Below, piece after piece: positions 8,891-41,894 of a stretch of 64,000 bases of DNA. A program made the position numbers and the translations under genes. The notes under the pieces are model-generated. The model saw only the letters and a list, made by a program, of their open reading frames with translations. It was not told the origin of the DNA and made no database searches. Source of the DNA: Eledone cirrhosa (Eukaryota); NCBI GenBank assembly GCA_964016885.1, contig OZ024741.1, positions 391,716,001 through 391,780,000 of the forward strand. The letters run 5' to 3'. Numbering within the stretch: position 1 is the first letter of the stretch; each line of letters opens with the position of its first letter.

Positions 8891-9069
8891 GTAATATTAA
8901 AGATACTATTTATAGTTATGTATATTTTAAACTATAAACAGGGAAGGTCAGTAATTTATTACTACCTTATTACCAGTAAGATAAATAGCTCAATGTAAGA
9001 ACATCAGTTGTTCTACAGAGCAGTTATATAGAATTCACAAGAATCAAAGCTATGTTCAAAGCATTTATT

Positions 9070-9116
9070 CACTTACAATTGTTTCATCCAAACCTAGACT
9101 TGGATTCTTCGGAGCA
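9070..9116 (-). ncRNA. Type I hammerhead ribozyme, U4C core (CCGAAGA)
   Basis: TGCT-CCGAAGA-ATCCAAG..TTTGGAT-GAAA-CAATTG-TA-AGTG. Confidence 0.65.
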
Positions 9117-9870
9117 TTTTTCAATGCTTGTACATATAATTGACCTCCTATCCAACGCAAGAGACATACAGATACATATATATATATATATATATTGATG
9201 TACAGTGGAGTGACATATATTATACTATAATATATTTGTATAGCAATTCAAGTTTAAAATCAAAATTAAAATTAAAACTAAAATACATGCGGCAGATAAC
9301 ACAGATAATGCAAGAGGATAGTTCGATAATCAGATCTAGTAGATAGTGTATGCGTTAGTCATACATGGAGCATGCAAGCGTGTCTCATTTATATACGAGT
9401 ATTGTGTGGCAAAGTATTACATGTAATACAAGCACTTTAAGCGGGTAAGCAAGAGTATTATGGTGGTTGTAGTGGGAGGGTATTTTTTGTATAGAACAAA
9501 AAAGTATGTGTGCAGAAAAAGAAAAAGAAAAAGAAAGTTATAGTTTTCGCATCCACCACCATTTTCACATTCAGAAAAAGGAAGTTATAGTTTTCACATT
9601 CATCACATATGTTACGATGAATTCGTATTGAATGTTTGATGTAGTAAATGATTGTAAGGTATTGAGGCTCAGTGTTATTTAATCCATATTTATAGAATAG
9701 GTTCTTTCTGCTGGGAGAATTTACAGTGGTTTAATTTTGATTTTAAATTTGAATTGCTATACAAATATGGTATAATATATGTCACTCCACTGTACATCAA
9801 TATATATATATGTATCTGTATGTCTCTTGCGTTGGATAGGAGGTCAATTATATGTACAAGCATTGAAAAA

Positions 9871-9917
9871 TGCTCCGAAGAATCCAAGCCTGGGTTTGGA
9901 TGAAACAATTGTAAGTG
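9871..9917 (+). ncRNA. Type I hammerhead ribozyme, U4C core (CCGAAGA)
   Basis: TGCT-CCGAAGA-ATCCAAGCC/GGTTTGGAT-GAAA-CAATTG-TA-AGTG, followed by AATAAA. Confidence 0.65.
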
Positions 9918-10279
9918 AATAAATGCTTTGAACATAGCTTTGATTCTTGTGAATTATATATATATATATATATATTTATACATATGTGTACACATATATA
10001 TTTTTTTATTACCAATGATAACTTATCGTACATAAATGCGCAAATAAGCATAGATTCTCAAACAAGCTATTGTCTTCTAAGTTTCCATTGTTAAATTTTT
10101 CTGAAGTGTCGGTTGATGACACACACACACACACACACACACACACATATATATATATATATATATATATATATATATATATATATATATATATATATAT
10201 ATATATATATATATATATAAGGAAAAAAGATGAAATCGAAAATGTATCTGGAGTCTTTTTAAGAATATTTATTTGTTTC

Positions 10280-37127: not shown

Positions 37128-37551
37128 TTTATGCTCGGGTGCACTCTTCCTACTTCTTCCATGTTTATGTACAGGAAGATGTTGGTTGGAAGGCGTTGGT
37201 AGTAGGCCGTCGCCTTTGTTGGTTTTGTAATAGGGGAATAGTTCGAGTAATCTACAGTGGTCACCGTCGCCGGGGTCGTGATCTTTAATGCGGTTATCTA
37301 TTCTATTATATCCGACTTCAACGAGGTCGCCGCGTGATCGGTTATAGGTATGGCTTACTATAACGTTCGTTTTATGAGGGGGTGGTTTCTAGAGCTAGCG
37401 TTAGGGATGTAGGAAATTCCTCCTATATATATATATATATATATATATATATATATATATATATATATATATATATATATATATATATATATATATATAT
37501 ATATATATACAGTATATTAACAAATGGAAACTATATTTATAAAACCATATT

Positions 37552-37617
37552 TATTTTATTATACATATTTCAAGAGCCACCAAGGCAAATTATGGTGCGC
37601 TTTCATCAGATAAAATA
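37552..37617 (-). ncRNA. Type I hammerhead ribozyme, canonical core
   Basis: Same motif as 16734-16799. The partner at 41096-41138 has lost A9 and the 5' arm of stem II. Confidence 0.75.
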
Positions 37618-37838
37618 CAATACAGATTAGTTTTATAAATATATATTGACATACCCTGAAAAAAGACAACCTTAACGGTTGGAGCTTCCTGGATAGTGGA
37701 GATATTACATTTATTGAGGGTGATAGAAAGTTATGATTGAGTATGCAAATGAGTGTCTGAAAGGTTGAAAAGATAACGTTTTATTTAAATTAAACTGTTG
37801 GAAGAAGGTGATATTGTGAGGGAGAGAGAAAAGAATTA

Positions 37839-39843
37839 ATGGAATTTGAAAATGAGATTATCTCTATCATACAAAGCATTAAATTTAAGAAAAACAACTT
37901 CGTAGGCCAGGATTACCTAAAAAGTCTCAAAAATAATATAGAAAGCTTTGAAAAAACGGGAAAAATTCTAGTTAAATCAGATAAAACCAACAATCTTTAT
38001 GGAATGCAAAAGGATAATTACAATGATCTTATATTGAAGGAATTAAGGAAGAATTAAAAAAGAGCAACCAGTGATGACCTTGAAAAACTAAATACGGAAG
38101 CTTCTTAAATAATGCAGGAATTATGCATCGAAAATACGACTCAACCCTTCATACCTAGGAAACCAAAAATTAATATGAAGGACCATAAAATAAATTTTGA
38201 AATTGAATTACCAGTTAGATTGATTGCACCATCTAAATCGGACCTTGGCATACTTAGCAAGAATATTTTAGATAGAATCATACCACAAATTAAGGAATTA
38301 TCTTATTTAAAATTATGGAATGGGACTAACGAAGTTATCGACTGGTTTAAGGACATTAAATATAAGTATAACAATAAATTTATTCGATTGGATATTGCTA
38401 ATTATTACTCATCTATCACTCCTAATCTACTTAATAAAGCCCTAACATATGCATTTAAACATACAGACTTAACTAGTAATGAAATGCGCATTATCTTAAC
38501 TGCACGTAAAACACTAATTAAATTTAACAACCACCTCTGACCTAGAGCAGACAGAGATAATAATTTTGATATTACTATGGGATCATCCGACTCGGCACAA
38601 ATAACGGATCTTGTGGGGCTTTTTATTAACAATACTTTACATAGGAAAATACCAGAGATGACCGGTGGTTTATATCGTTTATATACTATTACTTATAGAA
38701 AATAATAATAATTGTGAAATAAATAGGAAAAGAAAAGAAATTATACAATTTTTTAATTGCCTTAATCTTAAAGTAGAAGTAGAGAATAATTATAAAATAG
38801 TTAATTTTTTAGATGTAACTTTAAACCTTAACACTGGTCTTTATTATCCATTTCATAAAATAAATGAGAATCTAAACTATGTTAACTTTAATTCCAATCA
38901 CCCCAGATCCGTTAAAAACACTATTGTAAATTATGTGCAGCAACGTATTTCTAGAATTTCAGCTAATAAAAATATATTTGAAAATAAGGCACAATATTAT
39001 AACGAAGCGTTAGGTAGAGCAGGCTATAGTAATCAAATTAAATACATTGATAATAAGGATGTGCCAACTAACCATAACTATAAATATTATAATAGAAAAC
39101 CTTACACTAACTCGAAAACCAAAAGAAGAAATAGAACTAGAAATATATTATGGTTCGCTCCCTCTTTCTCATTAAGTATTAAAACTCCTATTGCAAAATT
39201 ATTCTTTAAAGCTCTAGATAAATGCTTTCCTAGAACACACAGGTATTACTCAATATTTAATAGACATACTATTAAACTATCATATTCCACCACTATGAAT
39301 TTAGCGCAGACTATTAATAGAATTAATAATAGAAACTTAAAACCTAACCAGAATACCATTAATACCCCTAGCAATATCCAATATAATGTTACGGCTCCCA
39401 GTAATTTAAATTTAGATAAATGTAATTGTAGAAATAAATCTAACTGTCCTCTAAATAATAATTGTTTAGTTAAAAATATAGTATACAATTGTAATGTAAA
39501 AACAAATGTAAACTCCTTTAATTATGTAGGCTCTACCTCCGCAGACTTTAAGTCCCGTTTTAATAACCACAAATGTTCTTTTACGAATATTGGTAAAAAA
39601 TCTTCAACTTCTCTATCTAACTTACTATGGGACCTGAAATCAAAGAACATTAACTATTCTTTACTTTGGAATATTATCTCCAAAGCTCCTTCATACACTG
39701 CTTTATCCAAAAATTGTTCTCTTTGTGTCGAGGAAATATTCTTTATACTAAAAAGTAAGAACTCTATTAATTTGAGGAATAATTTATTCAGTTCTTGCAA
39801 ACATCGTTTAAATTCAACTTTTAAATATATATATAAAATGTAA
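37839..39843 (+). pseudogene. Naiad-type RT / GIY-YIG polyprotein, inactivated
   Basis: VKSDKTNNLY, MKDHK.NF..PVRLI, LDIANYYSSI, FDITMGSSDSAQITDLVG, NFLDVTL, SNHP, CNCRNKSNCPL, IVY..YVGST. Stops at 38055, 38106 and 38538; the catalytic YRDD is destroyed by a frameshift at ~38678. Confidence 0.92.
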
Positions 39844-41894
39844 TATCCGACTTATCTCTTTTACATAATGTCTTCTATATCCATATATGATTCATATACT
39901 TAATTTATTTTCTATTATCTCTACTTCACATATATATTATTACACCTATCGATAGATTATTAAATTCCTTTATACTGCTTGAAACTCCTTTAAGGAAAAA
40001 AGATTTTTCTTGAAAAACTTACTGAAGGGTTTAAGAAAATCTTTTGAAAATTCCTTTGAAGGATATAGAAAAACTATATTTTTATATTTTTATACTTTTA
40101 TATTTTTATATTCTTATATTTTCAAAGTTTTTAAGATATATATCCAAATGTTTATATATATGTGGAAAAACATATGGTTTTTTGTATATATGTGGAGTAA
40201 CCTATGGTTTATGCTTTAAATATATTCTTATAAAAAAATTTTTTAATGTTCTAACTTTATAGCAAGCAAATTTATGACTTCGTATAAAATAACATAAGGT
40301 TCATGTTCTAATTACATTCTTAAGATAGAAAATTTAACTTCTTAACTTTATAGCATTTAATCCTTAGAGTCATCTGAGTTCTTAAAAAATCACTTATAAC
40401 TTCCTTTACTCTCCTTTACTGTTTTTATAATATAACTAAGTGGTTATTCTTTTGTAAACTCTCGAAAATTTTCCATAAATTTAGAATTATTTAGATATTT
40501 TAATTTTTGACTTACAACTTTTAATTAATAAAATAAACTATAATATATATTTTTTAATAATTTATAATCCTTAACATACACATTTAAACTAATTATTAAA
40601 TTAAATTAAACCTTTACTCAAATTTTTTTCAACCTATCATTATAAACATTATAATCAAAACATAACGAATCCTGCATTATAAATATTATTCCTCCACGCT
40701 ATCCTCATTTCTTCATTTCTTCTTCTTTCCTCTCACGTAAACATACTTACGCTGTATTTGTCCTTTGTAACTAATATTTTCTCTCACTTAAAAATATAAT
40801 TACGCTCTCCTCTCTTCACACTATTTTCACTGTAAAAAATATATACTCATTCCTTCTTTTTTTTCTTTTTTTTCTTTTTTTTTTCTCTCTCCCTCACAAT
40901 ATCCCCTTCTTCCAACAGTTTAATTTAAATAAACCGTTATCTTTTCAACCTTTCGGACACTCATTTGCATACTCAATCATAACTTTCTATCACCCTCAAT
41001 AAATGTAATATCTCCACTATCCAGGAACCGCCAACCGTTAAGGTTGTCTTTTTTCAGAGTATGTCAATATTTATTTATAAAACTAATCTGTATTGTATTT
41101 TATCTGATGGTGGCCCTTGAAATATGTATAATAAAATAAACATGATTTTATAAATATAGTTTCTATTTGTTAATATACTGTATATTTACTCCACCAAACT
41201 GTTGAGTGCTTTATATCAGTTATAAAAATTTTTAAGCTTGTTAAATCCCAACAAATTAAATATAACCTCTGCATATATATATATATATATATATATATAT
41301 ATATATATATATATATATATATATACACATGGGGGAATTGTAAACGTGTGTGTTTATCTAGTGGCATATATGTATTCGTAGGAAAATGGAAAAAACTCGG
41401 CGTAAGGAAGCTGTTAAAATATCAAAATGCCGTCGAAACGGCTTTGGGTAAAACATTACCTCGAAGGATAGAAATTAGCGGCTCGAAGAATTGATAGGAA
41501 GGAAGAAATAGAATGGATGATAGAAGATCACAAAGATTTAAATACACTCATCAGCTTTCAGACCAACTGCAGTTTCAACGTTTTGATTGAATGGACTGCG
41601 AAGGATAGGTGGCTCGTAACAATGGAGAAATAAATATTTCCGTTGGTATAATATTTGTGTTGGGACAGGTCAGAGAGAGAGAAAACAATGAAGTGCATCC
41701 ACTCGACCTCAAGTCGTTGCAAGGAAGAACAATGGTACTGTAAGCGGGAGCGCCCTCTAGAAGGGAAAGAGAGAGAAAGAAAAGAAGCAGTGACGGAGAA
41801 GGGAAAGAAAGAAAGAACGAAAGAACGGCGAACAGGAAGAGGGAAGAAAAGACAACTCACCTTAAGGTTGGTATCAATCGACAATATAAGGCTA

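What the first reader, a model, noticed from the sequence alone, without database searches (positions are those of the whole stretch)
9025..41272. Inverted PLE terminal copies join the (TA)n target at an internal TATA microhomology, a twin-priming signature
Seen: three separate insertions of one Naiad pLTR (16648, 18101, 37510) have inverted copies that stop at the same internal point (..TTAATATA(T/C)TG|TATA), about 90-100 nt short of the true 3' end, and run into (TA)n. The Neptune inverted copy begins (TA)n|AGGAAAAAAG at 10219, where the solo repeat at ~21100 reads GTATAAGGAAAAAAG; the 32.6-kb fragment ends at the same place. The arm at 33823 maps to internal CCAATATATAA (35289), and the arm at 9955 maps to internal TTATATAG (9025). 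Established: PLEs often have an inverted 5' pLTR, and twin priming explains 5' inversions in L1. Inference: both nicked (TA)n strands prime on the element RNA, one at the 3' end and one at an internal UAUA just downstream of the hammerhead, and the two cDNAs are then joined. This would give everything from inverted-repeat-flanked elements to pure palindromes.
Basis: partly seen in the sequence, partly recalled or inferred. Interest (0 to 1): 0.72.

Follow-up and report, generated by a model that had tools for sequence, protein, structure and literature searches.

The report
Penelope ends primed from both sides
These mirror-image ends belong to known Penelope-like jumping genes whose copies stop at one of two fixed points, both at short TA runs, and their layout suggests that both cut strands of a TA repeat likely start copying the same RNA, at points likely set by an RNA hairpin rather than by the TATA match alone.

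Summary
This is the published one-sided PLE 'tail', and two internal RT start sites were shown in vitro (PMC11167929). Corrections: the 'Naiad' is a Hydra-clade PLE; the outer site is also internal to the RNA; solo copies use the inner site too. Support for twin priming: in 26 of 56 inverted pairs the tail arm stops at or short of the inner site, which fold-back cannot make, and both arms carry the same subfamily marks (58 of 64). TATA is neither sufficient (11 other TA runs are hardly used) nor needed at the terminal base (an AA variant is 21% of read-through copies, 0.6% of junctions, and is overwritten by T). Each Hydra site lies 6-9 nt before a duplicated hairpin. The scan noted twin priming and these hairpins before, on this and other genomes; I found no paper stating either.

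The parts
16648..16925 (+). Family A (Hydra clade) palindromic insertion: inverted tail-less arm 16648 to about 16731, direct arm with hammerhead (CTGATGA 16742), inner site G16841, hairpin 16846-16869, tail ending early at 16925
17644..18100 (-). Family A palindrome: tail arm 17644-17918 (minus strand), tail-less arm 17919-18100; both arms start at -182/-181, the recurrent 5' end
37510..37835 (-). Family A inverted tail-less arm, joined to (TA)n at the inner site
37836..41272 (+). Family A 5'-truncated body (broken RT, DKT motif, C-terminal GIY-YIG with CxCX5C) and 3' pLTR; recurrent 5' end near 41016, inner site G41180, hairpin 41185-41208, outer site C41272
10220..10372 (-). Family B (Neptune) inverted tail-less arm
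10373..14487 (+). Family B body and 3' pLTR; inner site near 14421, tail about 65 nt to 14486
21035..21222 (-). Family B solo copy with tail, template TATAC intact at the inner site
32528..32658 (+). Family B solo copy ending at the inner site (tail-less, no partner arm)
8891..9270 (-). Family C (Hydra clade) arm with 140-nt tail (8891-9030)
9730..9954 (+). Family C tail-less arm ending GAAT|TATA, 2 nt before the usual inner site
26508..26630 (-). Diverged relative of family C, solo, ending at the inner site
33826..34146 (-). Family D (Neptune) inverted tail-less arm, 99% identical to its partner
34972..35332 (+). Family D direct arm; inner site A35292, 40-nt tail to 35332

Best explanation
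These are insertions of Hydra- and Neptune-clade Penelope-like retrotransposons whose copies end at two fixed sites, and the inverted ones likely form when both nicked strands of a (TA)n target prime reverse transcription, one at each site, likely on RNA from one source element, after which the two cDNA ends are likely joined head to head. Shown: two fixed ends per family; a TA-register run of 2-7 nt in the template at all eight sites; one arm of each type in almost all pairs; about half of family A pairs with non-overlapping arms; matching subfamily marks; a shared 5' stop near -183. Inferred: the enzyme (possibly a dimer) binds an RNA stem 6-11 nt 3' of each site and places the primer there, so the few A-U pairs help but do not pick the site. 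The outer cDNA either stalls at the occupied inner site (split arms) or passes it by displacement, later re-use of the RNA, or a sister RNA (palindromes). Both cDNAs often run off the RNA's 5' end in the pLTR.
For: Ends: 55 inner and 44 read-through of 99 anchored A copies; B 13 inner and 18 read-through of 31, C 19 and 10 of 29, D 14 and 9 of 23 after placing the 'other' rows by eye; 770 reads of another individual leave family D at the inner site into (TA)n. Split geometry: tail arm starts at -8 or later in 26 of 56 pairs against 12 of 47 unpaired tail copies (Fisher p 0.04), 17 of the 26 within +11..+37, over the hairpin. Same source: subfamily marks agree in 23 of 26 split and 35 of 38 overlapping pairs, against 91 of 104 in continuous copies and about 56% for random draws. 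Fixed register: AA variant 684 of 3,207 read-through matches but 24 of 3,805 junctions; in 5 of 7 AA pairs the partner arm reads TA. Hairpin: the 45 nt after the two A sites align better than any of 610 other windows, with ACUC/GAGU and GCUC/GAGC stems; family C shows the same (shuffle p about 0.006). In vitro precedent for two sites and both strands (PMC11167929).
Against: The excess of split pairs over unpaired copies is modest, and 12 of 47 unpaired copies also stop in the tail. Only 4 of 56 tail arms stop within 4 nt of the inner site (about 2 expected by chance). 30 of 56 pairs overlap and need an added step. An arm's own partner was its closest copy in only 11 of 33 pairs (4 ties), so one RNA and two RNAs of one subfamily are not separated. 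Central deletions after insertion could turn palindromes into split pairs. No empty target site was recovered, and TSDs cannot be read in (TA)n. In Neptune families B and D no duplicated motif was found; their stem is a weak predicted fold. In the one PLE tested in vitro the start site was reported as not homologous to the cut DNA.
Confidence: 0.65

Rival explanations
1. Dual priming: each nicked strand primes on its own RNA molecule (two RNPs or one dimer with two RNAs), so the arms are independent cDNAs.
For: Explains overlapping arms (30 of 56) with no displacement; a few pairs with a tail on both arms exist (L341, L348); 6 of 64 pairs disagree at subfamily marks; proposed for L1 in PMC2837659.
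Against: Does not predict one tail and one tail-less arm in nearly all pairs, nor the excess of tail arms that stop short of the inner site; the disagreement rate equals that inside continuous copies (13 of 104).
Confidence: 0.2
2. Fold-back or self-priming: one cDNA loops back, copies itself and is joined to the target by end joining at the TATA match (close to the self-priming idea in PMC3846280).
For: Many centres are near-perfect palindromes; short inverted pieces and reiterated junctions occur (L109, L292, L194).
Against: Needs the tail-less arm to lie inside the tail arm, which fails in 26 of 56 pairs and wherever the tail-less arm is the long one (L092, L222, L270, L322). Solo copies end at the same site (window 32528-32658). 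A self-copied arm would keep AA, yet it reads TA.
Confidence: 0.08
3. One reading: any internal UAUA can anneal to the second target end, and microhomology alone sets the breakpoint.
For: All eight sites have a TA-register run, each expected at 0.3-13% of positions; nearby TA runs are used now and then (16925, L019, L110).
Against: Eleven other TA runs of 4-6 nt in the A pLTR take almost no ends; TG and AA variants use the same base.
Confidence: 0.05
4. The endonuclease trims an integration intermediate at a fixed site, removing the tail from one arm (the reading in PMC8557442).
For: The inner site is TA-rich like the target, so the enzyme could cut there.
Against: Does not explain split pairs, in which the tail-less arm has no tail partner sequence to lose, or the overwritten +1 base; PMC11167929 maps RT starts to both tail borders.
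Confidence: 0.05

Closest known systems
PLE inverted pLTR with one-sided 30-40 bp 'tail' (PMC3846280 passages; PMC8557442 passages)
   Same: Head-to-head inverted copy, tail on one end only, on either end, (TA)n preference.
   Different: Tails here are 40, 63-65, 92 and 137-163 nt; the papers ascribe the structure to self-priming or endonuclease resolution and, in the passages I saw, report no TA match or hairpin at the sites.
PAc (Poseidon, Anolis) in vitro, PMC11167929 (parts 1-2 of 4 read)
   Same: Two internal RT start sites bounding the tail, just past the hammerhead; both strands nicked and extended; uncut RNA used; predicted dimer.
   Different: There the start site is called not homologous to the cut DNA and no model for inversions is given; here all sites carry 2-7 nt of target register.
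L1 twin priming and dual priming (PMC2837659 passages; Ostertag and Kazazian 2001 recalled)
   Same: Second target end primes inside the RNA; inverted halves with a small deletion at the inversion point.
   Different: In L1 the first primer uses the poly(A) tail and the inner site varies; here both sites are internal and fixed, and half of the pairs overlap.
Hydra clade of PLEs (PMC8557442 section 11; Hydra-1_Obim row of File S1 seen)
   Same: Families A and C: C-terminal EN, RWR, DKT, CxCX5C, CxxC, canonical hammerhead, (TA)n.
   Different: No sequence comparison with the published consensus and no tree were made.

Membership tests
   EN is C-terminal in window ORF 38662-39843 and L361
   CTGATGA..GAAA core with stems I and II at 16734-16800, read by eye; DKT. 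Rfam listed no hammerhead match.
Hydra-clade PLE (families A, C) | C-terminal EN with CxCX5C linker and CxxC, CxH motifs | tested here: met
   CNCRNKSNC, CSLC, CKH; CNCRSNRTC, CNLC, CQH (L363)
Hydra-clade PLE (families A, C) | RWK-type N-terminal motif and DKT | tested here: met
   RWR and SDKT in A; RWR and ADKT in C
Hydra-clade PLE (families A, C) | RT phylogeny within the Hydra clade | not tested
   no tree built
Neptune PLE (families B, D) | DKG, CX2-5CxxC linker and CCHH in a C-terminal EN | tested here: met
   D: ADKG, CDRPNCGIC, C..C..H..H (L357, L364); B: ADKG (L359), degenerate linker in window ORF 12383
PLE 'tail' signature | Optional extension on only one of two inverted pLTRs, bounded by two fixed ends | tested here: met
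L1-type twin priming | Inverted halves that do not overlap, with a small deletion at the inversion point | tested here: inconclusive
   met in 26 of 56 family A pairs, not in 30; not in the window's own examples
L1-type twin priming | Both halves from one RNA molecule | tested here: inconclusive
   same subfamily in 58 of 64 pairs; one molecule not shown
L1-type twin priming | Inner site chosen by microhomology to the target overhang | tested here: not met
   match present, but the site is fixed and tolerates a terminal mismatch
L1-type twin priming | Target-site duplication around the whole unit | not testable with these tools
   hidden in (TA)n; no empty site recovered

The most novel reading that the evidence does not exclude
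Two-ended priming is the normal, programmed integration route of endonuclease-bearing PLEs: a dimeric RT binds two RNA stems on one transcript (tandem copies of one hairpin in the Hydra clade), each of which sets a short UA template in register with one cut strand of a (TA)n target, much as telomerase RNA structure sets its template. Tail length is then the spacing of the two signals.
Probability: 0.4. Interest if true: 0.72.

Novelty: new variant of a known kind. Interest (0 to 1): 0.5.

Why it matters
How PLEs, the closest retroelement relatives of telomerase, integrate and why they leave inverted ends with a one-sided tail is stated as open in PMC8557442 and PMC11167929. Thousands of copies here give base-level predictions for an existing in vitro system: where each primer sits, that a terminal mismatch is tolerated, that a hairpin fixes the site, and that one cDNA can block the other. 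The structure itself is not new.

Tried and rejected
Rfam scan: only repeat-driven miRNA-like matches, no hammerhead listed. Pfam: no family for the two Hydra ORFs. DNA search for family D returned nothing; a pattern search worked. Empty-site search by joining flanks of 136 inverted units: no clean empty non-TA target; most units sit in TA runs between other elements, so I kept (TA)n as a pre-existing target. Read laying: no empty allele; no RNA holder listed. Idea that the RT makes the flanking microsatellites by stuttering: mixed, (AC)3+ at the A2 outer end 7 of 34 against 45 of 683 background, but (TC)3+ at the C site 5 of 17 against 6 of 18, and (TG) 0 of 68; not claimed. Cap-G at the -183 end: of 30 rows, 14 were read-through variants dropped by eye; of 16 left 9 have G where the template has C, but 5 of these could be lent by the partner arm; suggestive only. 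Hammerhead folds were badly windowed and not used. Test that long tail-less arms force split geometry: 4 of 5 against 22 of 51, too few.
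Full report
Setting. The window lies on contig C2 of a 3.0-Gb animal genome. Positions below are counted from the inner end point of each family (0 = last element base).

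Observation. The three family A insertions have different centres and flanks, so they are independent. An exact 25-nt anchor just upstream of the inner point matches 8,580 times in the genome, control 0. Of the first 100 matches, 99 were distinct: 55 end at the inner point and 44 read on. In 933,984 bases not selected for family A, 18 of 36 ends lie at -4..+8, 16 at +83..+92 and 2 elsewhere. Families B, C and D show the same two ends (B and C are best-hit samples, D the first 30 of 8,492 matches). Reads of another individual leave family D at the inner point into (TA)n (770 loose ends at 35299).

What the elements are. Families A and C have a C-terminal endonuclease with CxCX5C, RWR and DKT motifs and a hammerhead core: the Hydra clade of PMC8557442 (section 11), not Naiad, which has an N-terminal endonuclease and no canonical hammerhead. 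B and D have DKG, CX2-5CxxC and CCHH: Neptune. No tree was built.

Both ends are internal to the RNA. Sixteen genome copies of A read from the tail end through ATATAT into the ORF, ATG at +51. C reads on through TAT (ATG +47), D through TAT (ATG +28), B through AAT (one or two copies each). So all eight sites carry 2-7 nt in register with (TA)n; such runs start at 0.3-13% of positions in these regions (A and C are related, as are B and D, so the sites are not fully independent).

TATA does not choose the site. Eleven other TA runs of 4-6 nt in the A pLTR take almost no ends; rare uses exist (16925, L019, L110). The first two template bases vary (TA, TG, AA). Genome-wide, AA is 684 of 3,207 read-through matches but 24 of 3,805 junctions into (TA)n. 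In overlapping pairs whose tail arm reads AA the partner reads TA in 5 of 7 (1 AA, 1 unscorable); TG gives TA in 7 of 8; against this neat picture, 3 of 15 TA pairs have TG in the partner. Inference: the primer end is placed opposite +1 even when it mismatches. In A and C the sequence after the outer site repeats that after the inner site (A: score 42, 0 of 610 other windows, 0 of 2,000 shuffles; C: p about 0.006) and folds as a small stem 6-9 nt past each site, ACUC/GAGU at one and GCUC/GAGC at the other, with stem columns 94-99% conserved and three loop columns near 50% in 85 copies. B and D lack a duplicate but have a predicted CUYGUGU/ACACGAG stem 11 nt past the inner site that encloses the outer site (weak in B).

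Geometry. Of 103 tail-bearing A copies in anchor-sampled loci, 56 have an adjacent inverted tail-less partner. In 26 of 56 the tail arm begins at -8 or later, so the arms barely overlap or leave an 11-58 nt gap; 17 of the 26 stop over the hairpin (+11..+37). Unpaired copies do so in 12 of 47 (p 0.04; 25 of 55 after removing one duplicate; some 'unpaired' copies have a partner beyond the range searched). Fold-back cannot give split pairs. The other 30 pairs, and all of the window's examples, overlap. Subfamily marks agree between arms in 23 of 26 split and 35 of 38 overlapping pairs (all loci held), like continuous copies (91 of 104); arms differ by 3.7% against a 7.9% median to other copies, though the partner is the closest copy in only 11 of 33. 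Nineteen of 56 tail-less arms stop at -185..-176, as do many tail arms and solos; family D has a like stop near -190. This is probably the RNA's 5' end; a cap G is only suggested.

Mechanism. Shown: two fixed ends, target-register bases, one arm of each kind, split and overlapping classes, common source, common 5' stop. Inferred: both target strands are nicked and primed at the two sites, positioned by RNA structure; the outer cDNA stalls at the occupied inner site or passes it; the 3' ends are joined with a few shared or added bases. One RNA against two RNAs of one source is not settled.

What is known. The inverted pLTR with an optional tail is described in PMC3846280 and PMC8557442 (passages; supplement rows), with self-priming or endonuclease resolution as the explanation. 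PMC11167929 (parts 1-2 of 4; supplement not seen) shows two internal start sites bounding the tail and extension of both strands, and calls the site not homologous to the cut DNA. Twin and dual priming are L1 models (PMC2837659 passages). Six searches (listings only) showed no paper applying twin priming to PLEs or describing the hairpin; subscription papers are not covered.

Earlier scan notes. Twin priming of PLE ends was noted on several genomes and the twin hairpin on this genome (looked up after I found it). These are unchecked notes, not support.

Verdict. Real, general, and at heart the known tail. New variant of a known kind; interest 0.5.

Noticed in passing
window 35465-37423 (minus strand): A further Hydra-type element (CNCRDRGRC linker) with an Asn/Gly-rich insert before the endonuclease, sitting between two TA runs.
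   Followed up: no
window 18977-19744: Another Hydra-type endonuclease fragment with a 310-bp palindrome (19435-19744); a related repeat end recurs in many flanks.
   Followed up: no
L152, L154, L160, L250, L319; window 32657-32658: The last bases of the element are often repeated before the TA run: (TC)n, (AC)n, a 6-nt AATTCT repeat. Enriched over background for AC only; RT slippage at initiation or later DNA slippage.
   Followed up: partly
family D list; L298: Many inverted pairs have the same 351-bp spacing, centred on a GATC palindrome at about -192, where solo copies also stop.
   Followed up: partly
window 40997-41020: AATAAA about 20 nt upstream of a CCACT initiator-like motif (label recalled; PMC3846280 describes a similar layout) at the recurrent 5' stop: candidate pLTR promoter.
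   Followed up: partly
window 41104-41118: The 3' hammerhead of the long family A element has lost about 20 nt of stem II, while its inverted arm (37570-37610) keeps it.
   Followed up: no
window 15299-15501, 16007-16201, 24803-24898, 25477-25774, 46240-46431: A roughly 190-bp SINE-like repeat, also TA-associated, that serves as a target for family A (L110, L114, L329).
   Followed up: no
window 1264-3630 and 50627-57093: An open 788-aa LINE-type RT frame (Pfam RVT_1, E 2e-23) and a tandem satellite of about 140 bp.
   Followed up: no
L094-L096, L102, L231, L309: PLE ends of different families stack in the same TA runs, tail to tail.
   Followed up: partly
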